Source: an uncultured Nitrososphaerota archaeon
GTDB taxonomy: Archaea > Korarchaeota > Korarchaeia > Korarchaeales > Korarchaeaceae
Assembly: GCA_964480775.1 (NCBI GenBank)
Contig: CAYZRF010000014.1
Location: forward strand, 1 to 32,000
DNA: 32,000 nucleotides
Direction of reading: 5' to 3'
Part shown: piece by piece, positions 214 through 29,298 of the stretch
How positions within the stretch are numbered: position 1 is the stretch's first letter
Layout: the number at the start of each line of letters is the position of its first letter
The notes under the pieces: generated by a model
What the model saw: the letters and a program-made list of their open reading frames with translations, nothing else
The model's database searches: none
What the model was told of the DNA's origin: nothing
Position numbers and translations under genes: made by a program

Positions 214-2064
214 TTAAAAGAGCTTTTCTATCCTATTCATAGCTTCCTTTATGTTTTCTAGCGAGTTAGCAAAAGATATCCTTATATTATTGTCATAACC
301 TCCAAAAGCCCTTCCTGGAGTTATTAAAACACCAGCTTTGTAGAGCATAGCTTCTGCCACTTGAGAGGAACTCATCCCCGTTCTTGATATATCTGGGAAA
401 ACATAGAATGCTCCTTTAGGCTTTACAAGGTCAAACGATGGGATTTTAGATAACCTTTCAACGATAAAATCTCTCCTCCTTCTAAATTCCTCTACCATCT
501 CTCTGACAAATTCACTGGTTGACTTTAGTGCAGTAATTGCAGCTTTTTGGATGAAAGCGGGGGCGCAAGAGACTGAATGTTGTTGTATCTTGTTCATAGC
601 AGAAATTATCTCCTTGGGACCTGCAGCATATCCTAGACGCCAACCTGTCATAGCGTAAGCCTTTGAAAATCCGTTAACAACTATTGTTAGGTCCTTCATT
701 CCGTCCATTGATGCTATACTTATGTGCCTACCCTCATAGATCAGCTTCTCATAAATCTCATCGGATATCACGTATACTTTCTTCTCACTTAGAATTTCTG
801 CCAGTTCTCTCAAGGATTTCTCATCATATACGGCTCCAGTAGGATTGTTTGGAGTGTTCAGGATCAAAACCTTAGTTCTTGACCCTATGGAATTTGCTAT
901 ACTCTCAATATCTAGCGAAAAGTCCTCTTTTGTTGGAACTGCTTTTAGCTTTCCTCCTGCTGCTTTAACTATCTCTTTATAGCTCACCCAATAAGGTGCT
1001 GGTATGATAACTTCGTCTCCGTCTTCTACCAAGGACATGACTGCTTCAAAGACCGCAAATTTAGATCCTGGCGTCACGATTATGTTTTCAGGGCTATAAT
1101 CTAACCCATTATCTTCTTTGAATTTCTCTGAAATTGCTTCTCTAAGCTCTAAAATCCCCTTACTAGAAGTATAATGAGTAAAACCTGATTTCATTGCATT
1201 AAATGCTGCCTCGATCACGTTCTTAGGAGTGTCGAAATCGGGTTCTCCAACGCTTAAATAAATCACTTTGATCCCTTTCTTTTCCACCTCTTTTGCCTTT
1301 TCTAGGGTTTTCATTGTAGCTGACTCCTTTATTCTCCTCACCATAGAGGATAGAACGCTTTTATCTGCATTACTCATTTCAAATGCCAATCTAACAGCCT
1401 CCTCCGCTAACATTTGAAGAGGATCTACCACAGGAACCGAAATATCTCCTTCTTTAAGCACCAAGGATATCTCGGTGCATCCACAAATGATTGCTTCGAC
1501 CCCCTTCCTGATTAGCTCGTTTGCCACCATAAGTACCTTTTTCCTGCCAGTGTTAAGGTCTCCAGCTTTTATATGATCGTATATGGCGCTCATTACTTCT
1601 TTTTGAAGGCTTTCTGAGGGAACAAGGACATTAATCCCTTCCTTCCCCAACGCATTCTGATACAGTCCTGTTTTAACCGTTCCATCCGTTGCAATAAGTC
1701 CAACTTTTTTGAAGTTCATGTTTTTCAGCCTTGAGGCCGTTACTTCTATCATGCTAACAACCGGAATTCCGATTTCTCTCCTCAACTCATCGATATAGTA
1801 GTGTGCTGTGTTACACGGAATAATCAAGAAGCTCGCTCCTGCCATTTCAAGATTCTTAGCTGTCTCTATCATCATTGGGAGAGGACTAGGTCCCCCGTGA
1901 AGAATTGCTGCCGTTCTGTCAGGTATCTTGGCATTACTATCAATTATGACCCTTAGGTGATCTTGATCCTTTTTCGCAGGGGTCGCTCTTATTATTCTAT
2001 AAAATAAATCAGCAGTAGCCTCAGGTCCCATTCCTCCTAGAATTCCTATGACTCCTTCCTTCAT
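214..2064 (-). CDS. Fusion ORF: aspartate/glutamate racemase domain (N-terminal) plus class-I aspartate-type aminotransferase domain (C-terminal)
   Basis: The frame is continuous with no stop. The first ~230 aa carry racemase hallmarks (GILGGMGPEAT and the two catalytic-Cys motifs IIPCNTAH and ICGCTE). The last ~385 aa are a complete aminotransferase (NTPNNPTGAVY, PLP-lysine region NGFSKAYAMTGWRLGY). I prefer the ATG at 2064 over the GTG at 2076. An in-frame ATG at 1377 lies exactly at the domain junction. Confidence 0.8.
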   Translation of the reverse strand: MKEGVIGILGGMGPEATADLFYRIIRATPAKKDQDHLRVIIDSNAKIPDRTAAILHGGPSPLPMMIETAKNLEMAGASFLIIPCNTAHYYIDELRREIGIPVVSMIEVTASRLKNMNFKKVGLIATDGTVKTGLYQNALGKEGINVLVPSESLQKEVMSAIYDHIKAGDLNTGRKKVLMVANELIRKGVEAIICGCTEISLVLKEGDISVPVVDPLQMLAEEAVRLAFEMSNADKSVLSSMVRRIKESATMKTLEKAKEVEKKGIKVIYLSVGEPDFDTPKNVIEAAFNAMKSGFTHYTSSKGILELREAISEKFKEDNGLDYSPENIIVTPGSKFAVFEAVMSLVEDGDEVIIPAPYWVSYKEIVKAAGGKLKAVPTKEDFSLDIESIANSIGSRTKVLILNTPNNPTGAVYDEKSLRELAEILSEKKVYVISDEIYEKLIYEGRHISIASMDGMKDLTIVVNGFSKAYAMTGWRLGYAAGPKEIISAMNKIQQHSVSCAPAFIQKAAITALKSTSEFVREMVEEFRRRRDFIVERLSKIPSFDLVKPKGAFYVFPDISRTGMSSSQVAEAMLYKAGVLITPGRAFGGYDNNIRISFANSLENIKEAMNRIEKLF

Positions 2065-2146
2065 GTGATAGATCACTGCTCGAAAAGCAAAGATAGAGTA
2101 AAAAGGTTACTGTTCAAGAAGAAGTTTATAGTAACAGTTTTTCCTT

Positions 2147-7314: not shown

Positions 7315-8754
7315 CTATTTCTTTGCTTTCTCCCATAAGTCTAGAGGAGGCTTTAGGTCTGGCGGTAAGGGAGATTTATACTTTCTGCCCATTAGCCTCT
7401 TCTCAAACTCGTCCCAAGCCTTCTTTAGTAATTCTTCATTCGTCATGAGGTCTATTGCCGTAGCAGCCATGACTTTTGCAGCGAATATAAGTGATTTGTG
7501 GCCTAAGCCTGTTCCGCTTTGAGCTACGATCTGCCAAGAATGGCCAGGTGTGCCAAGCACATAGGTGGCTGTGGAGAACTCCTTCGTGGGAGCCTGCCAG
7601 CTTACATCTGCAACATCAGTTGATCCTGGACTAACTTCTCCATCGCCCCAAGGATCAGGAACACTTCTATCAATCATAACGTCAACTAGCTTCTCCCAAT
7701 CAGGCCTTTTGCTCTTCCTTAGGGCTTCTCTCTTTTGCTCTGGCGTTATGGATTTAGCTATTTCCTTCGCAAACTCAAGATCTTCATCTGAATATTCCGG
7801 AGTCCCTATTTCTCTCATATTTTTCACTATTAGCTCGCTTAGAACCCTGTTCGGTATGACATTTGAGATGCCTTTTATGAACTCAACCTCTAGCCGAGTC
7901 CCTGTCATTAAGGCAGCTCCCTTCGCTATATCAAGGATCCGCTGATATATCTCATCGACCTGTTCTCTTTCCGGAGCTCTTACAAGGTACCAAGAGCGTG
8001 CATAGGCTGGAACAACGTTTGGCTGCCCGCCCCCTTCCTCTATTATATAATGGATCCTTGCTTCTTGAATCACGTGCTCCCTCAGGTAGTTTACACCTAT
8101 GTTCATGAGTTCAACGGCATCTAAAGCGCTTCTCCCTCTTTCTGGAGATCCTGCAGCATGAGAAGAGATTCCATGGAAGTGAAACTTCACCGAGTTGTTT
8201 GCAAGACTACTCTTGAGCGTTGCCGCATTCATAGAGCCAGGATGATGACTTATTACCGCATCAACCCCCTTGAACACCCCGTCCCGAACCATAAACACCT
8301 TTCCACTGGCGTTCTCCTCTGCGGGAGTTCCAAAGAACTTTATCGTACCTTTGAGTCCTGCTTCCTCCATCGCAATTCTAACGGCTATCGCTGCAGCCAT
8401 TCCGGAGGTTCCGTGTATGTTGTGTCCGCAACCATGACCAGGAGCCCCCTCCTCTATCGGCTCTTTCCAAGGAACTGCTTTTTGAGAAAGCCCAGGAAGT
8501 GCATCGTACTCACCCATTATCCCTATCACTGGCCTCCCAGAACCGTATGTTGCGACGAAAGCTGTGGGCATGCCAGCAACTCCTCTCTCAACTCTGAAGC
8601 CAGCCTTTTCCAGGGTATCAGCCAACAGTTTGGATGATTTATACTCAATCAGCCCTAGTTCTGCGTACTCCCATATCTTATCACTTATCTCAATTATACG
8701 AGACTCGTTCTGGGTTATCCAACTAAAAGCAACCTCTCTAGCTTTCTCTGACAT
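7315..8754 (-). CDS. M20-family amidohydrolase (AbgB / aminobenzoyl-glutamate-hydrolase-like), paralogue A
   Basis: It has the metal-binding GHGCGHN motif and M20 architecture. I place the start at the ATG at 8754 (MSEKAREV...) by alignment with paralogue B. The 51-codon upstream extension in the ORF track is an open-frame artefact. Confidence 0.85.
   Translation of the reverse strand: MSEKAREVAFSWITQNESRIIEISDKIWEYAELGLIEYKSSKLLADTLEKAGFRVERGVAGMPTAFVATYGSGRPVIGIMGEYDALPGLSQKAVPWKEPIEEGAPGHGCGHNIHGTSGMAAAIAVRIAMEEAGLKGTIKFFGTPAEENASGKVFMVRDGVFKGVDAVISHHPGSMNAATLKSSLANNSVKFHFHGISSHAAGSPERGRSALDAVELMNIGVNYLREHVIQEARIHYIIEEGGGQPNVVPAYARSWYLVRAPEREQVDEIYQRILDIAKGAALMTGTRLEVEFIKGISNVIPNRVLSELIVKNMREIGTPEYSDEDLEFAKEIAKSITPEQKREALRKSKRPDWEKLVDVMIDRSVPDPWGDGEVSPGSTDVADVSWQAPTKEFSTATYVLGTPGHSWQIVAQSGTGLGHKSLIFAAKVMAATAIDLMTNEELLKKAWDEFEKRLMGRKYKSPLPPDLKPPLDLWEKAKK
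8072..8711. repeat. 640-nt tract identical to 12554-13193 (copy 1)
   Basis: I compared the two copies base by base by eye at an offset of 4482 nt and found no mismatch. The track corroborates this with identical antisense ORFs at 8158-8637 and 12640-13119. Confidence 0.95.
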
Positions 8755-8942
8755 TCCAAGTTTGCCCACTGAAGTTTTCCCTATAAACATTATGAACCTA
8801 TGATCGCATAACGTCTCTTTTGTTGAATTTCCCCTCAAAACTTTAAGAGCTCGCAGAATTTTTCCTAAATTAGGCATCAAACACCAGATGTAGGTTACAT
8901 GCTTGTGCAAAATTTATATTAGTGATCTTTTAAGTCCAAGCA

Positions 8943-9908
8943 ATGGAGTATGTTAATTTAGGGAGGGCAGGAATTAAGGTATCGAGAATCTGTTTGGGAT
9001 GCATGTCGTTTGGCAATAGCGCTGAATGGATGCTCGAAATTGACGAAGTGCGTCCCATAATAAGAAAGGCTCTGGATCTTGGAATAAATTTCTTTGACAC
9101 AGCGAACGTATATTCTAGAGGTCGATCTGAGGAAATTGTCGGAGAACTTCTCAAGGATTACAGAGAAGACGTCGTTATTGCCACTAAAGTATACGGTAAA
9201 ATGGGAGAAGGACCTAATGACCGGGGTTTGTCTCGTCTCCACATTTTAAAGCAGATAGAAGGGTCCTTAAAGAGGCTTCAAACAGATTACGTTGATCTGT
9301 ATCAGATTCACAGGTGGGATTACGAGACTCCCATTGAGGAAACACTTAGGACGTTGGACGACCTTGTACATCAGGGCAAGGTGAGGTACATAGGAGCATC
9401 AAGCATGTGGGCCTGGCAGTTCGCAAAAGCTTTATGGACTAGCGATCGTCTAGGCTTGGAGCGATTTGTTAGCATGCAGAATCACTACAACCTTTGCTAT
9501 CGTGAGGAAGAAAGGGAGATGATTCCTCTGTGTAAGGAGGAGGGAATTGCCATAATCCCATGGAGTCCTTTGGCGAGGGGTTTTTTAACGGGAAAATATA
9601 AGAGAGATAAAGAGCCAGAGGGCGCAAGATATAGGTCGGATAGATGGCTTAAAGAACGCTTTTTCCATCCCGAGGATTGGGATGTTTTAGATGCTTTGCT
9701 TGAAGTTGCTGCTGAAAAAGGTGTCCCCCCAGCCGAGGTAGCTCTAGCTTGGTTGTTTGAAAAAGGAGTAACTGCCCCCATTGTGGGTGTCACGAAAGTG
9801 GAGCACGTGGAGCAGGCAGTGGAGTCACTAGAGGTTCGCTTAACTTCAGAGGACTTGAAAAGATTAGAAGAGCCATATAAACCTCATCCTGTAATGGGTC
9901 ACAAATAA
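8943..9908 (+). CDS. Aldo/keto reductase
   Basis: It has the AKR signature GINFFDTANVYSRGRSEEIVGE and the IGASS and PWSPLARG motifs. An AATTTATATT box lies about 25 nt upstream of the ATG. Confidence 0.9.
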   Translation: MEYVNLGRAGIKVSRICLGCMSFGNSAEWMLEIDEVRPIIRKALDLGINFFDTANVYSRGRSEEIVGELLKDYREDVVIATKVYGKMGEGPNDRGLSRLHILKQIEGSLKRLQTDYVDLYQIHRWDYETPIEETLRTLDDLVHQGKVRYIGASSMWAWQFAKALWTSDRLGLERFVSMQNHYNLCYREEEREMIPLCKEEGIAIIPWSPLARGFLTGKYKRDKEPEGARYRSDRWLKERFFHPEDWDVLDALLEVAAEKGVPPAEVALAWLFEKGVTAPIVGVTKVEHVEQAVESLEVRLTSEDLKRLEEPYKPHPVMGHK

Positions 9909-11793: not shown

Positions 11794-13236
11794 TTATTTC
11801 TTGAAATGCTCTGACCAAGCATCTACGGGTGGCTTAATCTCAGGAGGTATCGCGCACTTGTACTTTCTGCCCATTAGTCTCTTCTCAAACTCGTCCCAAG
11901 CCTTCTTAATAAGCTCCTCATTCGTCATTAGGTCTATTGCCGTAGCAGCCATGACCTTTGCAGCAAATATAAGGGACTTATGACCTATACCCATACCACT
12001 CTGAGCTACGACCTGCCATGAGTGGCCTGGAGTTCCAAGCACCCAAGATGCTGTGGAGAACTCTTTCGTGGGAGCCTGCCAGCTTATGTCTGCGACGTCT
12101 GTGGATCCATGCATGACCTCACCTTCACCCCAAGGATCTGGTATGCTCGTGTCTATCAATACGTCAACTAGCTTCTCCCAATCAGGCCTTTTGCTCTTCC
12201 TTAGGGCTTCTCTCTTTTGCTCCGGAGGAATAGATTTAGAGATCTCCTTTGCAAACTCCATTTCCTCATCCGAGTATTCTGGGGCCCCTATTTCTCTCAT
12301 GTTCTTCACTATGAGTTCGCTTAAAACCCTGTTGGGTATAACGTTGTAGAGGCCATCTATCATTTGCACCTCCAACTTAGTTCCGGTCATTAAGGCAGCA
12401 CCTTTTGCTATGTCAAGTATCCTTTTTGTTATGGCCTCTACCTGCTCTCTCTCTGGAGCTCTAATGTAGTACCAAGAGCGTGCATAGGCTGGAACAACGT
12501 TTGGCTGCTCTCCTCCCTTTTCGATCACGTAATGGATCCTTGCTTCTTGAATGACGTGCTCCCTCAGGTAGTTTACACCTATGTTCATGAGTTCAACGGC
12601 ATCTAAAGCGCTTCTCCCTCTTTCTGGAGATCCTGCAGCATGAGAAGAGATTCCATGGAAGTGAAACTTCACCGAGTTGTTTGCAAGACTACTCTTGAGC
12701 GTTGCCGCATTCATAGAGCCAGGATGATGACTTATTACCGCATCAACCCCCTTGAACACCCCGTCCCGAACCATAAACACCTTTCCACTGGCGTTCTCCT
12801 CTGCGGGAGTTCCAAAGAACTTTATCGTACCTTTGAGTCCTGCTTCCTCCATCGCAATTCTAACGGCTATCGCTGCAGCCATTCCGGAGGTTCCGTGTAT
12901 GTTGTGTCCGCAACCATGACCAGGAGCCCCCTCCTCTATCGGCTCTTTCCAAGGAACTGCTTTTTGAGAAAGCCCAGGAAGTGCATCGTACTCACCCATT
13001 ATCCCTATCACTGGCCTCCCAGAACCGTATGTTGCGACGAAAGCTGTGGGCATGCCAGCAACTCCTCTCTCAACTCTGAAGCCAGCCTTTTCCAGGGTAT
13101 CAGCCAACAGTTTGGATGATTTATACTCAATCAGCCCTAGTTCTGCGTACTCCCATATCTTATCACTTATCTCAATTATACGAGACTCGTTCTCTGATAT
13201 CCACCCAAAAGCTACTTCCTTAGCCTTTTCAGACAT
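11794..13236 (-). CDS. M20-family amidohydrolase (AbgB-like), paralogue B
   Basis: This 480-aa protein starts at ATG and has the same motifs as paralogue A. Its residues ~15-228 are encoded by DNA identical to paralogue A. Confidence 0.9.
   Translation of the reverse strand: MSEKAKEVAFGWISENESRIIEISDKIWEYAELGLIEYKSSKLLADTLEKAGFRVERGVAGMPTAFVATYGSGRPVIGIMGEYDALPGLSQKAVPWKEPIEEGAPGHGCGHNIHGTSGMAAAIAVRIAMEEAGLKGTIKFFGTPAEENASGKVFMVRDGVFKGVDAVISHHPGSMNAATLKSSLANNSVKFHFHGISSHAAGSPERGRSALDAVELMNIGVNYLREHVIQEARIHYVIEKGGEQPNVVPAYARSWYYIRAPEREQVEAITKRILDIAKGAALMTGTKLEVQMIDGLYNVIPNRVLSELIVKNMREIGAPEYSDEEMEFAKEISKSIPPEQKREALRKSKRPDWEKLVDVLIDTSIPDPWGEGEVMHGSTDVADISWQAPTKEFSTASWVLGTPGHSWQVVAQSGMGIGHKSLIFAAKVMAATAIDLMTNEELIKKAWDEFEKRLMGRKYKCAIPPEIKPPVDAWSEHFKK
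12554..13193. repeat. 640-nt tract identical to 8072-8711 (copy 2)
   Basis: See copy 1. Both copies are in the same orientation (direct repeat), 4482 nt apart. Confidence 0.95.
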
Positions 13237-16473: not shown

Positions 16474-16715
16474 AAGAGTTCATATCGAGGGTTTCCCATA
16501 CGATATATCTAAGGGCTTTCATAGAAGCTAAAATCCAGACAGGATAGATTGGCACCATGAGAGGCGAAAGTCTCAATAACCATCCGAAGTATGCCTAACA
16601 ATCAGTTTACCAGCGGGTAAGCCCCCTTTCCCTATTATAAGCAAGGCTGTTGAGCTCTCAGCTAGGGATTACGTGATGCCTTTAAGAATATAAGATGTAC
16701 TGACAACGTTTGACT

Positions 16716-18134
16716 ATGGATAGATCCAAGGTCTTTGAACAGATAGATCAAGATATAGACAAACACGTGGAAAGAGTTAGAGAGTTAGTTAGACAGATAT
16801 CTGTTTCACCAGAAAACAGAGGGATATTGAGCTGCGCAACTTTGGTTAAGAAATACATGGAGGAGATAGGCTGTAAAGCAAGATTAGTTGAGACGAAGAG
16901 AAACCCGGTGGTCTATGGGGAGTATGATGCTGGAGCCGATAGAACGGTACTAGTCTATATGATGTACGATACGATGCCAGCAGATGAACCAGACTGGCGT
17001 GTAGATCCGTTCAAGGGTGAAATAGTTGATATGGAGCCATTTGGCAAGGTAATGGTCGCTAGAGGGGTCTACAATACAAAAGGAGCCCTTGCAGGCTTCA
17101 TAAATGCAATTAAATCCATACAAGAAGCTGGCGAAGAGGTTCCAGTTAACTTGATATTTGTCGCTGAAGGGGAGGAGGAGCTTGGGAGCAGAAACCTGCC
17201 AGAATTTGTGGAATCTTACTCGAGTGAGCTCAAAAAAGCCGATGTACTATACTTTCCATGGCCTGGGGAGGACATAGATGGTAAGCCGATAATCTACCTT
17301 GGGGTTAAGGGCATAGTTTACTTTGAGCTTGAGCTGAGTGGAAAGGACTGGGGAAGAGGCCCAACTGAATTTGGGATTCATGGGAGCAACAAGGCTTGGG
17401 TTGACAGCCCTGTCTGGAGGTTCATTCAAGCCCTAGCTACTATGACATCAGAGGACGGAAATAAAGTGATGATCGAGGGGTTCTACGATAAAGTTGAGGT
17501 GCCAACGGAGGAGGACCTTGAACTCCTTGAAAGATTGAAGGAAACCTTCAACGACGACACCTTCAAGCAAGTGAACAAAATAGAGAGGTTCATAGGAGAT
17601 AAGAAGGGAGTTGAGGCCCTAAAGCTTTACTTGTTCTCACCAACATTGAACATAGATGGGATATGGGGTGGGTACACTGGACCTGGGACTAAGACGCTGT
17701 TGCCTCACAAAGTAACTGCAAAGGTGGACGTTAGGCTAGTTCCGAACATGAAAACAGAAGACATACTTCCGATGATCAGAGAGCACTTGGATAAGCACGG
17801 ATTCAAGGAAGTAAAGATAAGACCCCTTGAAATGGGCTATAACTGGGCAAGGATGAGCTATAAGCACCCGTACTCACAGGCCCTAATAAAGGCCATTAGA
17901 GAATTTGGAAAAGAGCCGGAGATCTGGCCCACGATAGCTGGAAGCGCACCATTTTCGGTATTTGTGGATAAGCTCAAGCTGCCTTTTGTTTGTGGTGGCC
18001 TAGGACATGGAGCCAGAGCTCACGCTCCCAACGAATATTTAGTAATTGGAGAGGGAGGGCCAACTGGTGGGCTTGCGACTATGGAGAAGTCCTTCATAGC
18101 GATAATTGATAACATATCCAAGGCTGAATTGTAA
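16716..18134 (+). CDS. M20-family dipeptidase / metallo-hydrolase (a different subfamily from the AbgB-like pair)
   Basis: It has VLVYMMYDTMPADEPDWRVDPF, ARGVYNTKG and FVAEGEEELGS. I prefer the ATG at 16716, which lies 25-35 nt downstream of TTTAAGAATATAA. The track starts at the TTG at 16710. Confidence 0.85.
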   Translation: MDRSKVFEQIDQDIDKHVERVRELVRQISVSPENRGILSCATLVKKYMEEIGCKARLVETKRNPVVYGEYDAGADRTVLVYMMYDTMPADEPDWRVDPFKGEIVDMEPFGKVMVARGVYNTKGALAGFINAIKSIQEAGEEVPVNLIFVAEGEEELGSRNLPEFVESYSSELKKADVLYFPWPGEDIDGKPIIYLGVKGIVYFELELSGKDWGRGPTEFGIHGSNKAWVDSPVWRFIQALATMTSEDGNKVMIEGFYDKVEVPTEEDLELLERLKETFNDDTFKQVNKIERFIGDKKGVEALKLYLFSPTLNIDGIWGGYTGPGTKTLLPHKVTAKVDVRLVPNMKTEDILPMIREHLDKHGFKEVKIRPLEMGYNWARMSYKHPYSQALIKAIREFGKEPEIWPTIAGSAPFSVFVDKLKLPFVCGGLGHGARAHAPNEYLVIGEGGPTGGLATMEKSFIAIIDNISKAEL

Positions 18135-19180: not shown

Positions 19181-20236
19181 TTATAGGGAAAGCGCCTCTA
19201 TCTCCGCCTCTTTTGCTTTCTTTTCTTCTGTCTCTTCTTTCTCAAGCAAAGGCCTTACTTTCTCAACGAATTCGCGATACCTGTTCCTTACGGTTACTTC
19301 AGTAACGGAGACGGCCTGTGCTAGCTCCCTCTGGGTTCTGTGTATCCCCTCTTCCTGGGTAGCAAGATAAACTGCTCCAGCAGCCGTTCCAGCGGGCTCC
19401 CTTCCTAGGGTAACGCCTACCTCCCTAGCTATTCTTAATATCCTTATCGACTTCATAACAATTGATTGAGGGAGCTTTAGCTTCGAAACAATCCTCGAAA
19501 CGTATATCTCCGGTTTAGGTGGTGGTATTCTCACATCAAGCTTCCTGAAGAGGAACCTAAAGCTTCTGCCCACCTCTTTCTCCGAAAGTTCGAAGAATGA
19601 AGCTATCTCCTGTAAGAACCTCGGAACCTCCGTCCTACGGCAGGCTGCATAGATTACGGCTGCGACCATGGCATCCATGCTCCTTCCTTTAACTAGGCCA
19701 GCAGAAGAAGCCAACCTGTACAGTTTTGCAGCGTCCTCAACTGTATGAGACGGCAGGTCTAAGCGCTCTGCTATTGCTCTTATCTTGAACAATGCAGGCA
19801 TGACTCTTTTTTCCTTCCTACTCCTGACGTGCTTTTTAGTCCTTCTAAGGATCCTAATGGATCTTCCGCTAAGACCCTTAGAGTATGCGATTTTTGTGTC
19901 CAGCCCATATGCTGTTCTGGTAGGAGATACCGGTGCTCCAGACCTAGCCCTTTCCATAAATTCCTCGGTACTAAAAGCTCTCCAATCCTTTCCCTCTAGG
20001 AAAAGGCCCTTGGCCAAAACTAGACCACACTCAGAGCAGACAAGCTCTCCGCTCTCCTCGTCCACGATGATCTTGTTGCTACCGCACCTTGAACATATTC
20101 TCTTCCTCTCCACGATGTAGTGAGGATCATCGCCGCTTCTCTCATACTTAGAGCTGCGTTTGATCTCGTTTAGAGAGGATTCCGATTCAGACAAAAAGTA
20201 CAACTCCCAGAAAACTATCCCAATATAAGGTAACAA
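19181..20236 (-). CDS. tfb: Transcription initiation factor B (TFB), divergent paralogue; start codon unresolved
   Basis: It has a Zn ribbon (CSRCGS...CSECG) and two cyclin-like repeats (AAVIYAACRRTEVPRFLQEIA and AGAVYLATQEEGIHRTQRELAQAVSVTEVTVRNRYREF). No in-frame ATG precedes the Zn ribbon. Candidate starts are TTG at 20236, 20203 or 20194, or GTG at 20113. Confidence 0.85.
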   Translation of the reverse strand: MLPYIGIVFWELYFLSESESSLNEIKRSSKYERSGDDPHYIVERKRICSRCGSNKIIVDEESGELVCSECGLVLAKGLFLEGKDWRAFSTEEFMERARSGAPVSPTRTAYGLDTKIAYSKGLSGRSIRILRRTKKHVRSRKEKRVMPALFKIRAIAERLDLPSHTVEDAAKLYRLASSAGLVKGRSMDAMVAAVIYAACRRTEVPRFLQEIASFFELSEKEVGRSFRFLFRKLDVRIPPPKPEIYVSRIVSKLKLPQSIVMKSIRILRIAREVGVTLGREPAGTAAGAVYLATQEEGIHRTQRELAQAVSVTEVTVRNRYREFVEKVRPLLEKEETEEKKAKEAEIEALSL

Positions 20237-20243
20237 AGGGGGT

Positions 20244-20251
20244 ATTTAAAT
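20244..20251 (-). promoter_or_regulatory. TATA-like box upstream of the TFB gene
   Basis: TTTAAATA on the minus strand lies only 8 nt from the longest-ORF TTG. This argues that the real start is further downstream. Confidence 0.4.
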
Positions 20252-20338: not shown

Positions 20339-21985
20339 TTAATAATACTCCCTGAAGATGTCCCTAAGCACCGTTTCCAGCTTCTCATCGATGAGACCCC
20401 TGCTATCCAAAAGACGCCTTAAACTGTCGAACTGGCTCTTTGTGATGTCTCCAAGCTGAGGCAAAAGCTCCATCTTGAAAGCCCCTGAGACCAACATGAT
20501 CGTGTCGTCAATTCCCTGAGATCTAAGTGAGCCAATTATAGAGGCTGCCTGCAGCAGTGTACCGGTGCCGATGGGCCTCCTCACAATACCTCTTATGTCC
20601 CTAACGAGCTCATTAAGCTCCTGAACAGCCTCCCTCAGCACTTCGTCCTCAAGGATGGCAGTTTTTATTGCAAAGCTCATGGCTTTGTCTTTCTCTCTCT
20701 CAAGGCATTTCCTACTCGATGGAGGCTCTATGAAGACGTGTGAGAAGCACCTAAGAAGCGCAAACCCCATTGAGCTTAGGCCTGATCTATCAAAGGTGTT
20801 CATAGTTCCCACTATTCTGAAGTCCCTTGGCAGTTTCAGATGATCTGGATCCTCAGCCTGATGCAAACCATCTTTCAGGATATCCAGTATCTCTCTGGCC
20901 TCCTTCACCATATCCTTGAGTTCAGGCTCCTCTGATAAATACAGGTAAGAGTACGCTTCCTCTATCAGGCTTTTAGGAAGCACCCTTTCATCAGGTACCC
21001 CTGAGAAGATTGTTACGAGATCCCCAAAAACTCCATATATGTCTGCTCTGTTGAACTCCTCAATCACGAGCAGTACTCCTCTGCCTTCCTTCTTCTTTTT
21101 GATGTGATTTGCCAGGGCTCTTAGTAAGAAGCCCGGCTTCCAAAGGGTCCGGCCTCCAACAGAACGTGGACCACCTATCACGTCCTTCCTAGTCCATTCA
21201 GAGGTTGCCGTGAGCAATATCGTCTCGAAGTTGAGCGCATCGGCAACCGCTTTAGCCAAGGAGGTCTTTCCACAACCAGGTGGGCCAACCAGAAGGAGAT
21301 GCCTGCCAGAGTCAAAGGCAGCGACGACCTCTTCAAGGATTCCCTTGTCAAAAATCAGGTCTCTTCTTGACACGGCTTCTTCCAAGTTCCTCGGATCCAG
21401 AAACAGGATCTCCCAGGTGGGCTCAGCGACAAGCGGAATAGTCTCTATTTTAGTGGCTTTTGTTATGATCTCCTCGATTATCCTTTTTGCTGCCTTGGAT
21501 CCAACTCTCATGAAACCTCTTGGAGCAAACTTCTCCTTGTAGCCAGCTTTAACGTTGAAATCACTTCTGGGCATGTTAAGAACACAAATGTCGTTGAGAA
21601 AGAAAAGCAGGCTCCAGGTTTTACCGTCCTTGTCCTTTCCCCAAACTTTTAGGGCTATTTCCTCATTTTCTAATTTGAAAGCTACCTGCGCAGAACACAC
21701 ATATCGGTTATCGTAGTAAAAGACTACGTAATCCCCTTCTTTGAGCGATTTCCAAGCCTCCTTCAACTCCTGCTTTAGACCCCACATCTTTACCTTTCTA
21801 TCCGGATAGAGATGCTCGAGTATCCTCTTCTCCTCTTCCTTAAGGAGGTCTGCAATATTATCGATAGAGACTAAGTTTTCAAAGCTTGTTAACGCACTCG
21901 CCTCTTCTAAGGTGCTAACAGAAATGACGCTTTTGTTGATGCGTTCTTTTGATCCTGTTGCTATGAAAACCTGCTTCTGGACCAT
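20339..21985 (-). CDS. McrB-family AAA+ GTPase with an unassigned ~190-aa N-terminal domain; no McrC partner gene
   Basis: It has Walker A LLLVGPPGCGKTS, the McrB-type Walker B / NRA motif LLVIEEFNRADIYGVFGDLV, the McrB signature RIVGTMNTFDRS, then ALLRCFSHVFIEPP and a helical lid. The N-terminal region (KMWGLKQELKEAWKSLKEGDYVVFYYDNRYVCSAQV...TWSLLFFL) looks like a small beta-barrel reader domain. The ATG start is clean. Confidence 0.8.
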   Translation of the reverse strand: MVQKQVFIATGSKERINKSVISVSTLEEASALTSFENLVSIDNIADLLKEEEKRILEHLYPDRKVKMWGLKQELKEAWKSLKEGDYVVFYYDNRYVCSAQVAFKLENEEIALKVWGKDKDGKTWSLLFFLNDICVLNMPRSDFNVKAGYKEKFAPRGFMRVGSKAAKRIIEEIITKATKIETIPLVAEPTWEILFLDPRNLEEAVSRRDLIFDKGILEEVVAAFDSGRHLLLVGPPGCGKTSLAKAVADALNFETILLTATSEWTRKDVIGGPRSVGGRTLWKPGFLLRALANHIKKKKEGRGVLLVIEEFNRADIYGVFGDLVTIFSGVPDERVLPKSLIEEAYSYLYLSEEPELKDMVKEAREILDILKDGLHQAEDPDHLKLPRDFRIVGTMNTFDRSGLSSMGFALLRCFSHVFIEPPSSRKCLEREKDKAMSFAIKTAILEDEVLREAVQELNELVRDIRGIVRRPIGTGTLLQAASIIGSLRSQGIDDTIMLVSGAFKMELLPQLGDITKSQFDSLRRLLDSRGLIDEKLETVLRDIFREYY

Positions 21986-22130
21986 CTACACACCTATGAG
22001 ATGTAACCTATGTGTTTTGAATTTTTCAAAATACTAAAAACATTGTTGTTAAAGGATTTTCCTTTATTAGGGTTCAGGAGTTAATTAGTAAGAACACCAC
22101 TGACTTGGCCTCTGATTCACTCAAGATGCA

Positions 22131-23132: not shown

Positions 23133-23295
23133 TTTAACCGATGACAAATCTGACAACAGAATTTAATCTCTGTCCTCCTTTTTCTTTTAATAGCTGAAGC
23201 CAGAAAGGTCAAATAAGTCTTTTCGACCGAGTTCGCTTAGCAGACCAGGGTAATGCTTTAAGTATGTATAAAGTGTAATTACTTTGGTAATGATC

Positions 23296-23520
23296 ATGGG
23301 TACTGTTACGATTAAAGTCGATGATGAGCTAAAGAGAAAGATGAAGACTGTCGAGATCAACTGGTCTGAGTATCTAAGAGAGGCAATTAGACAGAGGATT
23401 GAGTTGGAGGAAAGAAAGCATGCTGCTGAGAAGCTGTTAGAGAGCTTAAAGGGAAAGAAGCATGCTACCCCCCGAGGCTTCATAAACAAGACAATTAGGG
23501 AGATGAGAGAAGCCCATTGA
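23296..23520 (+). CDS. vapB: VapB-type antitoxin (same family as 28674-28895)
   Basis: This small protein (TVTIKVDDELKRKMKTVEINWSEYLREAIRQRIELEE) has a stop that overlaps the start of the downstream PIN gene. A GTATAAAG box lies about 25 nt upstream. The start is ATG at 23296 or 23290. Confidence 0.7.
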   Translation: MGTVTIKVDDELKRKMKTVEINWSEYLREAIRQRIELEERKHAAEKLLESLKGKKHATPRGFINKTIREMREAH

Positions 23521-23960
23521 AGGTTTACGTAGTAGATGCATCGGTTGCATCTAGGTTCTTACTGGTTGAAGAATTTTCTGATAAAGCCAGCTTGGTCTTA
23601 GAGGATTTCCTCTCTGGAACCATAGATCTGAAAGCCCCCGAATTAGTGGTTTACGAGGTGGGCAATACACTATGGAAAGCAGTCAAGCAAGGGTTCATTG
23701 GCATTGAAGAGGCTATTCAGAATTTTTCCTACTTTCTTAAGCTTAGAATAGGGTCCGTTAGGTTAGATGAAGAAGGCCATAAAGCGATCCTTGAGTGGAG
23801 CATTAAGAATAAGGCGACGTACTATGACAGCGCGTATGTGTTGTGTTCAAAGATATTAGAGGCAACTCTATTGACAGCAGACGAAATTTTGTATAAGAAA
23901 GCTCGAAAAGAGGTTTCAACCATGCACTTGAAAGACTATCGAGCCTTATCTAAGAGATAA
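23517..23960 (+). CDS. vapC: PIN-domain toxin VapC
   Basis: It begins VYVVDASVASRFLL and has conserved acidic positions (YEVGN, YYDSAY, LLTADE). The TTG start overlaps the vapB stop (ATTGA). Confidence 0.85.
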   Translation: MKVYVVDASVASRFLLVEEFSDKASLVLEDFLSGTIDLKAPELVVYEVGNTLWKAVKQGFIGIEEAIQNFSYFLKLRIGSVRLDEEGHKAILEWSIKNKATYYDSAYVLCSKILEATLLTADEILYKKARKEVSTMHLKDYRALSKR

Positions 23961-26412: not shown

Positions 26413-26835
26413 TCAATGGGTTTTAACGTATTTTCTTATGTATGTCACGAACTCTTCAAGATCGTCCAATCTCTCCCTAATGAACTTACACATCAGATCA
26501 ACGTCTATTTCGTTATATTGATGAACTAAGATGTTCCTGAACCCTGCCATGGGTGCTATCCTTTTTGCGAAATCCTTTGGGATTATGCCCGCCTTTCCCA
26601 AAGTAAGAAAAACGCCCTTATACTCCTCTGGTCTGGGCAAGTTCTCTTCAGCAATTATCATTTCTCCAATGTCTAAAGCAGCCTCAATAGCAACATGTAG
26701 ATTTCTTTCTAAGGCGCTCTTTAGCTCATAGTTATTTTCCACCTCTATAGGTTTGACGTTTGCTTTGGACCTGAGATAAGCAAGGGCTCTCTCTAGCAGC
26801 GCTATCTTCCTGGCTATCTTCTCAGAGAAATACAT
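26413..26835 (-). CDS. hepT: HEPN-domain (DUF86) toxin of a HEPN-MNT pair
   Basis: It has the Rx4-6H motif in MAGFRNILVHQYNEID. It is 140 aa and starts 4 nt downstream of the MNT gene stop. Confidence 0.85.
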   Translation of the reverse strand: MYFSEKIARKIALLERALAYLRSKANVKPIEVENNYELKSALERNLHVAIEAALDIGEMIIAEENLPRPEEYKGVFLTLGKAGIIPKDFAKRIAPMAGFRNILVHQYNEIDVDLMCKFIRERLDDLEEFVTYIRKYVKTH

Positions 26836-26839
26836 GTTA

Positions 26840-27214
26840 TCACCTAGACAAAATGGCTTTGGCCCACCTTAGATCGTAAAACCTCCTATCATGGTAGAGC
26901 TTGAGAGTCATGTAAACAAACTCTTTTAACGCATTTTCGTCTCTAATAAACAGAGGTTTTCCCCTTATCACCTCGAAAGCCAAGCTTGGAGAGGCTTCAT
27001 TTAAGAGCACCATATCGACCTTAATTCCTGGCTCAAGCTCGCTTGCAAGCTCTATGATTTTTTCAATCATCTCGTCTCTTGACAAGGACTTATCAAGATA
27101 CACGCCTATATCAATATCACTTAGCTTCGATGCCTTTTCCCTCGCAGCCGATCCAAAGATGTAGGCAAAGAGCACTTCCTCCTTTGACGATAAAAGCTTG
27201 ATGACCCTCTCCAT
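26840..27214 (-). CDS. mntA: Minimal nucleotidyltransferase (MNT) antitoxin
   Basis: It has the GSxxR...DxD motifs (IFGSAAREKASKLSDIDIGVYL). It is 124 aa and lies immediately upstream of the HEPN gene. Confidence 0.85.
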   Translation of the reverse strand: MERVIKLLSSKEEVLFAYIFGSAAREKASKLSDIDIGVYLDKSLSRDEMIEKIIELASELEPGIKVDMVLLNEASPSLAFEVIRGKPLFIRDENALKEFVYMTLKLYHDRRFYDLRWAKAILSR

Positions 27215-27948: not shown

Positions 27949-28236
27949 TCACATTCTAAATTTTTTCATCTCTCCAAATCTATTTTTAACCAGAGAGCCC
28001 AGCTCACTAACCGCTTCCTCAGCATCTGGCCCCTCAGCGGTAATAACGATGGTGTGACCGCATTCCGCATGCAGAGACAGGACCTTATTAAGGTTCTTAG
28101 CGTCTGCTTTTTCCCCATCCTTTTGGACGATGATGTGTGATTTGAACTTCCTTGCAGTCTCCACAAATAAGGATGCTGGCCTACCACTTAGCCCAAGTTC
28201 GTTCATGAGTTTAACTGCGGTTCTTATCCTTGTCAT
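27949..28236 (-). CDS. HPr-fold (PtsH-like) protein lacking both canonical phosphorylation residues
   Basis: It aligns along its whole length with HPr as I remember it: NELGLSGRPASLFVE against N-GLH-RPA---V, ADAKNLNKVLSL against -A-KS------L, and TIVITAEGPDAEEAV against -V-I-AEG-DE--A-. His15 is replaced by Ser and Ser46 by Asn. Confidence 0.75.
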   Translation of the reverse strand: MTRIRTAVKLMNELGLSGRPASLFVETARKFKSHIIVQKDGEKADAKNLNKVLSLHAECGHTIVITAEGPDAEEAVSELGSLVKNRFGEMKKFRM

Positions 28237-28673: not shown

Positions 28674-28895
28674 AAGTCCAAGACAACTGTTTACAGCATA
28701 AGGATTCCAGCGGAGTTAAGGAAGCTGATGGATAGCGTTGACGTAAATTGGCAGGAAGAAATAAGGAAGACCATAGAACAGCGTCTGAGGAAAGAGATTA
28801 GAAAGAAAATGTTGAAGGACGCAAGAGAACTAAGGGAGAGGACCAAGAGAATAAGCTCAGCAGAACTGATAAGGGCGGACAGAGATGCGAGATAA
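28674..28895 (+). CDS. vapB: VapB-type antitoxin (paralogue of 23296-23520)
   Basis: VYSIRIPAELRKLMDSVDVNWQEEIRKTIEQRLRKE has the same pattern as the first VapB. I prefer the GTG at 28674 because TTTATATA (28645-28652) lies inside the longer track ORF. It overlaps the downstream PIN gene by 11 nt. Confidence 0.65.
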   Translation, partial: KSKTTVYSIRIPAELRKLMDSVDVNWQEEIRKTIEQRLRKEIRKKMLKDARELRERTKRISSAELIRADRDAR

Positions 28896-29298
28896 AGCCG
28901 TACTTGATACCGGCATCATATCAGCGCTGTTCTTCAAGGAGGAGATATCAGAGGAGGCCGAGAAAATAGTTGAGACGTACGAAGATTTGATAACCGTAGA
29001 TCTAGCGATTCCAGAGTTAACTAATGTAGCATGGAAGAGAGTTCAATTCTTTAAAGAGCCTAAGGAAACGATAGAGGTTAACCTCAGGAAAGGAATTGAG
29101 TTCATAGTAAGGGCATGTAATGTAATTAGCTCATTCGAAATGTACGAGAAAGCTTTCGAAATAGCAATTAGGATGGAGATTACAGTGTATGATGCGTTAT
29201 TCCTTGCTGCCGCAGAAAAAGAAGGTGCTGACTTCATTACTTCAGATGGCAAACTGGTTGAGAAGTTGAAAGGGCTAGATTTCGTTAAGTTGGTGTAA
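28885..29298 (+). CDS. vapC: PIN-domain toxin VapC
   Basis: It has AVLDTGIISALFF, PELTNVAWK, VYDALFLAAAE and FITSDGKL, which supply the four acidic PIN positions. Confidence 0.8.
   Translation: MRDKAVLDTGIISALFFKEEISEEAEKIVETYEDLITVDLAIPELTNVAWKRVQFFKEPKETIEVNLRKGIEFIVRACNVISSFEMYEKAFEIAIRMEITVYDALFLAAAEKEGADFITSDGKLVEKLKGLDFVKLV

What the first reader, a model, noticed from the sequence alone, without database searches (positions are those of the whole stretch)
20339..21985. Stand-alone McrB-family GTPase with an unassigned N-terminal reader-like domain and no McrC nuclease
The ORF carries the motifs that define McrB-type AAA+ GTPases: GPPGCGKT, the EEFNRA Walker-B/NRA element and GTMNTFDRS with its NxxD. 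In every described McrBC-type restriction system, McrB works with an adjacent McrC nuclease. Here the downstream same-strand gene is a TFB with its own TATA box and the upstream one is ilvC. No PD-(D/E)xK-like ORF lies within several kb. The first ~190 residues (GDYVVFYYDNRYVCSAQV...KTWSLLFFL) look like a small beta-barrel (PUA/EVE-like?) module, which in this family usually reads modified DNA, but I cannot place it in a named family. The segment that is ALRRRF in classical McrB reads ALLRCF here. This could be a single-gene or re-partnered defence/sensor module, or a decayed McrBC.
Basis: partly seen in the sequence, partly recalled or inferred. Interest (0 to 1): 0.7.

Follow-up and report, generated by a model that had tools for sequence, protein, structure and literature searches.

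The report
Orphan McrB motor without its nuclease
This archaeal gene is a relative of the McrB restriction motor that still has its methylated-base reader domain but has lost its nuclease partner and one catalytic arginine, yet selection keeps it intact, so it has probably been put to a use other than cutting DNA.

Summary
The ORF at 20339-21985 (-) encodes 548 aa with all the quoted motifs, and lies between ilvC and a TFB gene.

- **Family:** the AAA+ half belongs to the McrB family. A profile of its 41 closest relatives hits E. coli McrB best among solved structures, not MoxR.
- **N-terminal domain:** the "unassigned" domain can now be assigned. A confident AlphaFold model matches the YTH-like N-terminal domain of Thermococcus gammatolerans McrB best.
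- **Partner in relatives:** 75 of 84 related loci have an adjacent ~450-aa PD-(D/E)xK nuclease gene. This includes 17 loci with the same two-domain architecture.
- **No partner here:** there is no partner and no remnant of one in the window, nor in 74 kb from five orthologous Korarchaeota-like contigs. Where downstream flank is available, these keep the order AAA-TFB-MBL-M20.
- **Not recent decay:** dN/dS is about 0.04 against an 84% orthologue, and the intergenic gaps are compact.
- **Lineage-specific changes:** residues invariant in partnered relatives are replaced. The main one is the arginine finger (RRF to RCF in all six orthologues), along with D317 and D360.
- **GTP preference:** not shown.

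The best reading is an exapted, nuclease-free reader and nucleotide switch, in parallel with S. aureus PcdA. I rate it a new variant of a known kind, of moderate interest.

The parts
20339..21985 (-). Orphan McrB-family gene, 548 aa plus stop codon
   Evidence: ORF. Pfam AAA_5 2.4e-17. Profile of relatives hits E. coli McrB best in the PDB at 1.1e-32. dN/dS 0.04 against the orthologue in L086.
21431..21985 (-). N-terminal YTH-like (PUA/EVE superfamily) reader domain, residues 1-185
   Evidence: AlphaFold2 with a 21-sequence alignment gives pLDDT 87.1 and pTM 0.84. Foldseek against the PDB puts the TgMcrB N-terminal domain 6p0f/6p0g first (E 1.6e-6 and 5.5e-6, TM up to 0.69), then MJECL36, YTHDF2, Mmi1 and ASCH. 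The sequence profile also hits 6p0f at E 0.014. W68, F89, W115, W124 and F129 are invariant in the family. No Pfam model matches.
20696..21400 (-). McrB-type AAA+ core, residues 196-430
   Evidence: phmmer and profile hits to E. coli and T. gammatolerans McrB chains. Boundaries verified.
21263..21286 (-). Walker A / P-loop GPPGCGKT (K240), followed by Ser242 rather than an aromatic residue
   Evidence: The role of the aromatic residue after the P-loop is described in PMC7680126 and bioRxiv 10.64898/2026.08.31.748284.
21044..21061 (-). Walker B region EEFNRA (E309-E310, N312)
   Evidence: E310, N312 and R313 are invariant in 41 relatives. Position 309 is D in 33 and E in 8.
20786..20803 (-). 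McrB consensus loop MNTFDR (N396, D399), which replaces sensor I
   Evidence: N396 and D399 are invariant in 41 relatives. MNxxDR is the McrB signature according to PMC7680126.
20744..20752 (-). R412-C413-F414: the sensor-II-like arginine is kept and the arginine-finger position is Cys
   Evidence: 39 of 41 relatives have RRF. Only the window protein and its orthologue have RCF. The codon is TGC in all orthologues checked. The roles of Tg R425/R426 are from PMC7680126.
20342..20695 (-). C-terminal helical region, residues 431-548 (lid/helical bundle of the family)
   Evidence: Aligned across relatives to about residue 530. dN/dS 0.018.
21986..22053 (-). Conserved 68-nt upstream block: A/T-rich TATA-like element (about 22021-22040) and AGGTG 6-10 nt before the ATG
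   Evidence: Homology between L089 and the window starts exactly here. Sequence shown. Promoter function is inferred.
19181..20194 (-). Neighbouring TFB gene (context, not shown to be a functional partner); TTTAAATA at 20243-20250
   Evidence: Pfam TFIIB 3.5e-41 and Zn_Ribbon_TF. The order AAA-TFB-MBL-M20 is conserved in L087, L089, L090 and L092, and as far as the contig reaches in L091. The TFB gene survives the deletion of the AAA gene in L088.

Best explanation
The gene encodes an orphaned McrB homologue.

**Origin.** It descends from a two-gene archaeal McrBC-like restriction module, consisting of a YTH-like reader fused to a McrB AAA+ motor plus an adjacent PD-(D/E)xK nuclease. A Korarchaeota-like lineage lost the nuclease gene long ago. 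That lineage kept the motor gene under strong purifying selection.

**Likely mechanism (inferred).**
- The YTH-like domain flips a methylated base, probably in DNA, into an aromatic pocket.
- The AAA+ domain still binds nucleotide, since the P-loop lysine, Walker B glutamate, MNxxDR loop and one arginine are intact. It probably still forms rings.
- The trans-acting arginine finger is now Cys, and D317 and D360, invariant in partnered relatives, are replaced. Hydrolysis is therefore expected to be slow.
- The protein would then act as a nucleotide-gated binder or switch on modified nucleic acid, not as a translocating motor that delivers a nuclease. It cannot cleave DNA by itself.

**Shown:** family, fold, absence of a linked partner, selection, and the substitutions.
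**Inferred:** ligand, oligomeric state, slow hydrolysis, and the cellular role.
For: - **Family.** The profile of 41 relatives hits E. coli McrB at 1.1e-32 and TgMcrB at 7e-23; no protein named MoxR is among the 60 matches listed. The MNxxDR loop is present.
- **Reader domain.** The model has pLDDT 87 and the top Foldseek hits are the TgMcrB N-terminal domain, followed by YTH domains.
- **Ancestral partner.** 75 of 84 related loci have an adjacent partner with a GRPD...ExK motif. 17 partner-bearing proteins share the same N-terminal domain plus AAA+ architecture. In a neighbour-joining tree the orphan nests among partner-bearing Thermoproteota proteins.
- **Partner absent.** Nothing was found in the window or in 74 kb of orthologous loci. 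The intergenic gaps are only about 145 nt on each side.
- **Old and selected.**
  - Six contigs carry orthologues at 84-100% identity.
  - The downstream gene order is the same wherever the contig extends far enough.
  - dN/dS is 0.04 overall and 0.016 in the AAA+ part, with dS saturated.
- **Functional shift.** 7 of 46 highly conserved columns deviate, including R413C (39/39 R), D317Y (39/39 D) and D360V (38/39 D). All are shared by the orthologue.
- **Literature.** R426A in TgMcrB impairs GTPase activity and hexamer formation (PMC7680126). PcdA is a precedent for a partnerless McrB that lost one of the two arginines and became a weak NTPase (PMC10602043).
Against: - Only 32 kb of this genome and about 74 kb of related contigs could be searched, so an unlinked nuclease partner is not excluded.
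- No biochemical data exist for this clade. A Cys at the finger position might be compensated by another basic residue.
[quoted passage not shown] The C-terminal helical region is retained, unlike in PcdA. Both are also compatible with a still-active motor.
- A deletion variant (L088) lacks the gene, so it is dispensable at least in some populations. That fits an accessory defence gene as well as an exapted one.
- dS is saturated, so the dN/dS value is approximate.
Confidence: 0.6

Rival explanations
1. It is still the motor subunit of a working Type IV restriction enzyme. The nuclease, either the family's ~450-aa PD-(D/E)xK partner or a different effector, is encoded elsewhere in the genome and joins it in trans.
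For: - The nucleotide-binding and water-positioning residues are all intact.
- The reader domain is of the kind used by a characterised restriction McrB.
- The gene is present or absent among close relatives, as expected for defence genes (L088 deletion).
- McrB and McrC homologues are occasionally separated, or the operon order is reversed (PMC10542128).
- Only part of the genome could be searched.
Against: - In 75 of 84 relatives the partner is immediately adjacent, often overlapping.
- None was found in 32 kb plus 74 kb here.
- The arginine finger and two other residues invariant in partnered relatives are lost specifically in this lineage. That is unexpected if the same motor-nuclease cycle were kept.
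Confidence: 0.2
2. It is a decaying remnant of an McrBC operon after recent loss of McrC, and has no function.
For: The partner is missing, and a catalytic arginine plus several conserved residues are replaced. One related contig has deleted the gene.
Against: - The reading frame is intact at 548 aa in all five full-length copies, and the 5'-truncated copy in L087 is also open. Together they span two lineages that differ at 22% of nucleotides.
- dN/dS is 0.04 overall and 0.016-0.018 in the AAA+ and C-terminal parts.
- The upstream 68-nt block is conserved.
- The substitutions, including Cys413, are themselves fixed in all copies.
- There is no space for, and no trace of, a degraded partner.
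Confidence: 0.03
3. It is a housekeeping MoxR/AAA_5-type chaperone ATPase, not a McrB relative.
For: - The only Pfam hit above threshold with wide coverage is the generic AAA_5.
- Some distant relatives are named 'MoxR-like ATPase' by their sources.
- The single-sequence phmmer search puts midasin AAA domains first.
Against: - The profile search puts E. coli McrB first and T. gammatolerans McrB high. The midasin score is a sum over six repeated domains.
- The MNxxDR loop and the (R)RF helix are McrB signatures.
- The N-terminal domain matches a McrB reader domain.
- Relatives pair with a PD-(D/E)xK nuclease, not with a VWA protein.
- There is no VWA gene in the window.
Confidence: 0.03
4. It works with the adjacent TFB as a methylation-sensitive regulator of transcription initiation.
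For: The AAA gene is directly followed by TFB in every orthologous contig that extends that far.
Against: - The whole block AAA-TFB-MBL-M20 is syntenic among close relatives only, so the adjacency carries little information.
- Each gene has its own promoter-like element.
- TFB and its promoter persist unchanged in the L088 deletion variant.
- No partner-bearing relative is next to a TFB.
Confidence: 0.08

Closest known systems
Thermococcus gammatolerans McrB (TgMcrB; PDB 6p0f/6p0g N-terminal domain, 6ut3/6ut5 AAA+)
   Same: It has the same two-domain plan: a YTH-like modified-base reader followed by a McrB AAA+ domain. It is the best structural match for the N-terminal domain and a significant profile match for the AAA+ half. 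The MNxxDR loop is shared.
   Different: TgMcrB has an adjacent McrC, a tandem R425/R426, and a Trp after the P-loop that stacks on guanine. The window protein has no partner, R-C at the tandem-arginine position, and Ser after the P-loop. Sequence identity in the N-terminal domain is only about 15%.
E. coli McrB (PDB 6hz4, 6ut6, 7vsr)
   Same: It is the best PDB sequence-profile match for the AAA+ domain (1.1e-32). Walker A, Walker B, NxxD and the ALRRRF-type helix are all alignable.
   Different: E. coli McrB has an unrelated N-terminal DNA-binding domain, works with McrC, and prefers GTP. In the window protein ALRRRF reads ALLRCF.
PcdA of Staphylococcus aureus (McrB-derived cell-division protein, PMC10602043)
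   Same: It is a partnerless McrB-family protein with N-terminal PUA-like (EVE) reader domains. One of the two successive arginines is lost, and it is retained by selection for a non-restriction role.
   Different: PcdA also has a degraded Walker A, has lost the Walker B glutamate and lacks the C-terminal helical bundle. The window protein keeps all three. PcdA is bacterial and its role with FtsZ and DivIVA is known, whereas nothing is known here.
Partner-bearing archaeal relatives (e.g. Natronomonas L023, Nitrososphaerales L019, Methanodesulfokora L009)
   Same: They have the same AAA+ subfamily. In 17 loci the YTH-like N-terminal domain is also the same, and the proteins are of similar length (511-593 aa).
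   Different: They keep RRF, D317 and D360. They are followed by a ~450-aa gene with a GRPD...ExK nuclease motif.
LlaI.R2 / BsuMI.R2 non-canonical McrB motors (bioRxiv 10.64898/2026.08.31.748284)
   Same: They are McrB-family motors without the canonical guanine-specificity determinants. They show that the family is not uniformly GTP-specific.
   Different: They lack a fused reader domain, work in three-gene systems with a nuclease, and keep the catalytic arginines.

Membership tests
McrB family of AAA+ NTPases | The AAA+ domain is most similar to McrB rather than to MoxR, midasin or classic AAA proteins | tested here: met
   The profile of 41 relatives against PDB sequences gives E. coli McrB 1.1e-32 and TgMcrB 7e-23. 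No protein named MoxR is among the matches listed. The best NCBIfam hit is McrB PRK11331, but it is far below the equivalog cutoff.
McrB family of AAA+ NTPases | Consensus loop MNxxDR(S) in place of sensor I | tested here: met
   M395-N396-T-F-D399-R400-S401. N and D are invariant in 41 relatives. The definition is from PMC7680126.
McrB family of AAA+ NTPases | Intact Walker A lysine and Walker B acidic pair | tested here: met
   GPPGCGKT (K240) and E309-E310. An E-E pair also occurs in 8 of 41 relatives.
McrB family of AAA+ NTPases | Two successive trans-acting arginines (sensor-II-like plus arginine finger; Tg R425/R426, Ec R348/R349) | tested here: not met
   R412-C413. 39 of 41 relatives have R-R. 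Cys is fixed in all six orthologues.
McrB family of AAA+ NTPases | GTP preference: an aromatic residue after the P-loop stacks on guanine, plus N-linker contacts | tested here: not met
   Ser242 follows GKT. The whole subfamily lacks a conserved aromatic residue there. The actual nucleotide preference cannot be tested with these tools.
McrB family of AAA+ NTPases | N-terminal modified-base reader domain | tested here: met
   The model of residues 1-185 matches the TgMcrB N-terminal domain and YTH domains.
McrB family of AAA+ NTPases | Helix-2 insert and pre-sensor-1 beta-hairpins of the clade | not tested
McrBC two-component Type IV restriction system | Adjacent McrC-type partner (N-terminal finger domain plus PD-(D/E)xK nuclease) | tested here: not met
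   No hit to three partner HMMs in the six-frame window (best E 0.14-0.3) or in 74 kb of orthologous loci. No nuclease was found by Pfam in any window ORF. The rest of the genome was not available.
McrC family (for the partner found next to relatives) | DUF2357/McrC N-terminal domain plus PD-(D/E)xK nuclease | tested here: inconclusive
   The GRPD...ExK motif is conserved. DUF2357 matches only 3 and PDDEXK_7 only 2 of 61 partners. There is no NCBIfam hit. The profile hits only the Cas4 4ic1 nuclease motif at E 0.013. The AF2 model (pLDDT 79.5) gives only weak Foldseek hits to restriction-endonuclease folds, and McrC is not among the 50 matches listed.
YTH / EVE (PUA-like) modified-base readers | PUA-like beta-barrel fold with an aromatic cage for a flipped modified base | tested here: inconclusive
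   The fold is met (Foldseek probability 1.0 to TgMcrB-NTD, YTHDF2, Mmi1, ASCH). Five aromatic residues are invariant in the family, but they were not mapped onto the cage. No Pfam YTH or EVE model matches the sequence. Ligand binding cannot be tested here.
MoxR-type AAA+ chaperones | MoxR AAA+ core with an associated VWA-domain partner | tested here: not met
   The bpMoxR Pfam model reaches only E 0.015 over 40 residues around the P-loop. There is no VWA gene in the window. Relatives pair with nucleases.
PcdA-like exapted McrB derivatives | Partnerless McrB with a degenerate active site (Walker A degraded, Walker B Glu lost, one Arg lost, C-terminal bundle lost) | tested here: inconclusive
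   Partnerless and one arginine lost: met. Walker A, Walker B Glu and the C-terminal region are intact: not met. It resembles PcdA in kind and is not a homologous subgroup.

The most novel reading that the evidence does not exclude
This is an archaeal case of McrB domestication. A nuclease-free hexameric reader of methylated DNA, with its arginine finger replaced by Cys, has been recruited from a restriction system into a chromosomal role. Possible roles are marking or remodelling methylated sites, or gating transcription near the co-conserved TFB. This would be analogous to PcdA in staphylococci and CTTNBP2/NAV in animals.
Probability: 0.25. Interest if true: 0.65.

Novelty: new variant of a known kind. 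Interest (0 to 1): 0.45.

Why it matters
McrBC is a textbook motor-nuclease pair, and very few cases are known where the motor survives alone.

- **A natural experiment.** This lineage allows a direct comparison. Close relatives carry the nuclease and keep the RR arginines plus D317 and D360. The orphan lacks the nuclease and has replaced exactly those residues, yet evolves under strong constraint.
- **What it could reveal.** The replaced residues may be those that couple the McrB ring to its nuclease. The case also gives a testable example of how defence proteins are converted to other uses in archaea.
- **By-products.** Two unannotated families emerged. One is a YTH-like reader domain with no Pfam model. 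The other is a ~450-aa nuclease partner annotated everywhere as hypothetical.

Tried and rejected
1. PADLOC gave only P-loop-level hits and no defence-system assignment.
2. The word-indexed homologue search found only 2 close and 5 distant relatives. The exhaustive search was needed.
3. Pfam and NCBIfam scans of the partner family were almost empty.
4. The partner profile against the PDB hit only a Cas4 nuclease motif.
It was repeated with database hits. The fold search did not recover McrC, so I do not call the partner McrC.
6. Two attempts to extend the contig beyond the window, using the end genes, failed because there was no exact product on record. The look-up with the TFB gene returned only short Logan contigs, so the rest of the genome could not be searched.
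7. The metagenome scan found one more orthologue. The viral scan found none, and the N-terminal-domain alignment was too variable for a viral scan.
8. The paper on the TgMcrB N-terminal domain (PMC6970917) is not held, so the cage residues could not be mapped from the literature.
9. The bacterial-type promoter and terminator scan gave no enrichment and does not apply to archaea.
10. A GEVED-domain gene lies divergently upstream in L089-L091. I rejected it as a partner because it is absent from the window.
Full report
**1. Observation**

The ORF at 20339..21985 on the minus strand starts with ATG and encodes 548 aa. Their coordinates were checked by translation:

| Motif | Residues | Nucleotides |
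|---|---|---|
| GPPGCGKT | 234-241 | 21263-21286 |
| EEFNRA | 309-314 | 21044-21061 |
| MNTFDR | 395-400 | 20786-20803 |
| R412-C413-F414 (within ALLRCF) | 412-414 | 20744-20752 |

Downstream on the same strand lies a TFB gene (TFIIB repeats 3.5e-41, zinc ribbon). It is preceded by TTTAAATA at 20243-20250. Upstream lies ketol-acid reductoisomerase.

The remaining window genes are mostly housekeeping. They include aminotransferase, MFS, M20 peptidases, aldo-keto reductase, Ldh_2, TrmO and a PKD protein. A few toxin-antitoxin pairs are also present: VapBC, HEPN/MNT and PIN. G+C content is even across the locus.

**2. What the C-terminal two thirds are**

- Pfam gives only the generic AAA_5 (2.4e-17, residues 229-414).
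- The best NCBIfam model is McrB, far below its cutoff. PADLOC gives nothing specific.
- A single-sequence search of PDB sequences gives midasin (six summed AAA domains), then E. coli McrB (2.4e-10) and T. gammatolerans McrB.
- An exhaustive phmmer search finds 5483 relatives at E<=1e-3, 68 of them at <=1e-30.
- A profile of the 41 closest relatives (A2) hits E. coli McrB best (1.1e-32) and TgMcrB at 7e-23. No protein named MoxR is among the 60 matches listed.
- The McrB signature loop MNxxDR, which replaces sensor I (PMC7680126), is present with N396 and D399 invariant in the family.

I therefore place the domain in the McrB family. The MoxR refutation condition is not met.

**3. What the N-terminal third is**

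No Pfam model matches residues 1-190. The exhaustive search shows that this segment is a mobile module:

- It occurs alone in proteins of 175-222 aa.
- It is fused to several McrB subclades, including classical ALRRRF-type ones.

A 21-sequence alignment (A6) has W68, F89, W115, W124 and F129 invariant. AlphaFold2 with this alignment gives pLDDT 87.1 and pTM 0.84.

Foldseek against the PDB ranks the hits as follows:

- The N-terminal domain of T. gammatolerans McrB comes first (6p0f E 1.6e-6; 6p0g, the DNA-bound form, TM 0.65/0.69).
- Next come MJECL36, eukaryotic YTH domains (YTHDF1-3, Mmi1, YTHDC1), PH1033 and ASCH.

The sequence profile independently picks 6p0f as its best PDB hit (E 0.014, two colinear segments).

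It is the YTH-like reader type of TgMcrB. That domain is reported to prefer N6-methyladenine DNA and to hold the flipped base in an aromatic cage (PMC7544203). Which modification is read here is unknown.

**4. Do relatives have a partner?**

A genome scan returned 80 loci, mostly archaeal: Thermoproteota, Korarchaeota and haloarchaea, plus some bacteria. Gene maps show an immediately downstream, often overlapping, same-strand gene of about 400-475 aa in most of them.

These partner proteins share a GRPD...(I/V)xExK(Y/F)S...RFKxLAYxYE motif, which is a PD-(D/E)xK nuclease signature. HMMs built from them find an adjacent partner in 75 of 84 loci. Two more loci have too little flank, and L028 has a hit just outside the distance rule I used.

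Seventeen partner-bearing proteins carry the same YTH-like N-terminal domain. These come from haloarchaea and a Nitrososphaerales MAG. They therefore have exactly the architecture of the window protein.

I could not show that the partner is McrC itself:

- Pfam DUF2357 matches 3 and PDDEXK_7 matches 2 of 61 partners.
- NCBIfam gives nothing.
- All database homologues are 'hypothetical' with no Pfam domain.
- The profile hits only a Cas4 nuclease motif.
- An AF2 model (pLDDT 79.5) gives only weak matches to restriction-endonuclease folds (BsaWI, Can2, BamHI).

It is an McrC-like partner by position, size and nuclease motif. Family membership is inconclusive.

**5. Is the partner missing here, and since when?**

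The partner HMMs find nothing in the six-frame translation of the window (best E 0.14-0.3). The gaps flanking the gene are only about 145 nt on each side.

Orthologues at 84-86% identity occur on five further contigs: L086, L087, L089, L090 and L091. Three short Logan contigs hold sequence identical to the window.

- Wherever flank is available the order is AAA - TFB - MBL-fold - M20 peptidase.
- Homology between L089 and the window begins 68 nt upstream of the ATG. Further upstream the window has ilvC, whereas L089-91 have a divergent GEVED-domain gene.
- No partner is found in these 74 kb.
- The TFB cluster carries the NCBI name 'Candidatus Korarchaeota archaeon', which suggests the source lineage.
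- Between the window gene and L086, nucleotide identity is 78% and synonymous sites are saturated (dS about 2.2).
- dN/dS for the same pair is 0.04 overall: 0.10 in the N-terminal domain, 0.016 in the AAA+ part and 0.018 in the C-terminal part. The exact value is approximate because of the saturation, but constraint is clearly strong.

So the condition 'recent deletion, simple decay' is not met. One related contig (L088) has a 4.13-kb deletion with 8-nt microhomology. It removes most of the gene together with two neighbours, so the gene is dispensable in some populations.

**6. What changed in the orphan?**

Among 46 columns conserved in at least 85% of the 39 other relatives in that alignment, the window protein deviates at seven:

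| Position | Relatives | Window protein |
|---|---|---|
| 317 | D in 39/39 | Y |
| 322 | E in 34/39 | D |
| 323 | F in 37/39 | L |
| 324 | F in 34/39 | V |
| 360 | D in 38/39 | V |
| 404 | F in 36/39 | S |
| 413 | R in 39/39 | C |

Five of these residues are identical in the 84% orthologue; at 322 and 324 the orthologue has E and I.

Register with E. coli (ALRRRF) and the family (ALxRRF) makes R412 the sensor-II-like arginine and C413 the charge-compensating arginine finger. These correspond to Tg R425 and R426. [quoted passage not shown] The Cys codon is fixed in all six copies.

Walker A K240, Walker B E310, N312, N396, D399 and R412 are all retained.

The residue after the P-loop is Ser, not the Phe/Trp that stacks on guanine in canonical McrB. 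Non-canonical McrB motors are also known to be nucleotide-promiscuous. 'GTPase' is therefore unproven.

In a neighbour-joining tree the orphan nests among partner-bearing Thermoproteota proteins, with short internal branches and no overall rate acceleration.

**7. Interpretation**

The data fit an ancestral two-gene module of reader-motor plus nuclease. The nuclease was lost in a Korarchaeota-like lineage, and the motor was retained and remodelled.

I infer that the protein binds modified nucleic acid through the YTH-like domain and binds nucleotide. With the arginine finger gone, it would act as a slow switch or clamp rather than a translocase, and it has no nuclease activity of its own.

The closest described parallel is PcdA of S. 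aureus. PcdA is a partnerless McrB with EVE domains that lost one of the two arginines and became a weak NTPase in cell division (PMC10602043). PcdA is more degenerate than this protein.

The rivals are:

- Restriction in trans with an unlinked nuclease. This is not excluded, because only part of the genome was available.
- A functional link to the neighbouring TFB. The evidence is weak: the synteny is shallow and TFB persists in the deletion variant.
- Decay. Rejected.
- MoxR. Rejected.

**8. Novelty**

YTH-like McrB reader domains, McrBC diversity and McrB orphans are all known. What is new is a conserved archaeal orphan with a specific loss of the arginine finger and two other residues invariant in partnered relatives, sitting next to partnered relatives that allow direct comparison. 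I rate it a new variant of a known kind, of moderate interest.

Noticed in passing
window 21431-21985 (-); proteins P0025-P0030, P0039-P0041, P0068, P0087, P0130, P0134: The YTH-like N-terminal domain forms a family with no Pfam model. It occurs as a stand-alone protein of 175-222 aa. It is also fused to several different McrB AAA+ subclades, sometimes with a second ~200-aa middle domain (motif FxFxxxDFxxCTGKKEDAxYLxxRFKxLL ... VQFQVSI).
   Followed up: partly
L009 8962-10314 and the equivalent genes in about 75 loci (alignments A4, A5, A7): The ~450-aa nuclease partner of this archaeal McrB clade (GRPD...ExKYS motif) is annotated everywhere as hypothetical. It has no Pfam or NCBIfam match and is not recognisably McrC by fold search.
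   Followed up: partly
L088 about 9528-9535, compared with L089 5483-9612: A closely related contig carries a 4.13-kb deletion with 8-nt microhomology. It fuses the start of an ornithine-cyclodeaminase-like gene to the last ~250 nt of the AAA gene and removes the GEVED-domain gene in between. It may be a real population variant or an assembly artefact.
   Followed up: partly
window 23284-23960 (+), 26413-27214 (-), 28885-29298 (+): Toxin-antitoxin modules lie within a few kb upstream of ilvC: a VapBC-like pair (small ORF plus PIN), a HEPN(HepT)/MNT pair, and another PIN protein.
   Followed up: no
window 214-2076 (-): A 620-aa ORF that fuses an Asp/Glu racemase domain to a class I/II aminotransferase domain.
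   Followed up: no
window 7315-8910 (-), 11794-13236 (-), 16710-18134 (+): There are three M20/M25/M40 peptidase paralogues within 11 kb.
   Followed up: no
window 27949-28236 (-): A PTS HPr-like protein (PF00381, 2.6e-24) in an apparently korarchaeal genome.
   Followed up: no
L089 6274-7830 (-), also in L090 and L091: A GEVED-domain protein of 518 aa is divergently transcribed from the orphan McrB gene in the sister lineage. It is absent from the window, where ilvC takes its place.
   Followed up: partly
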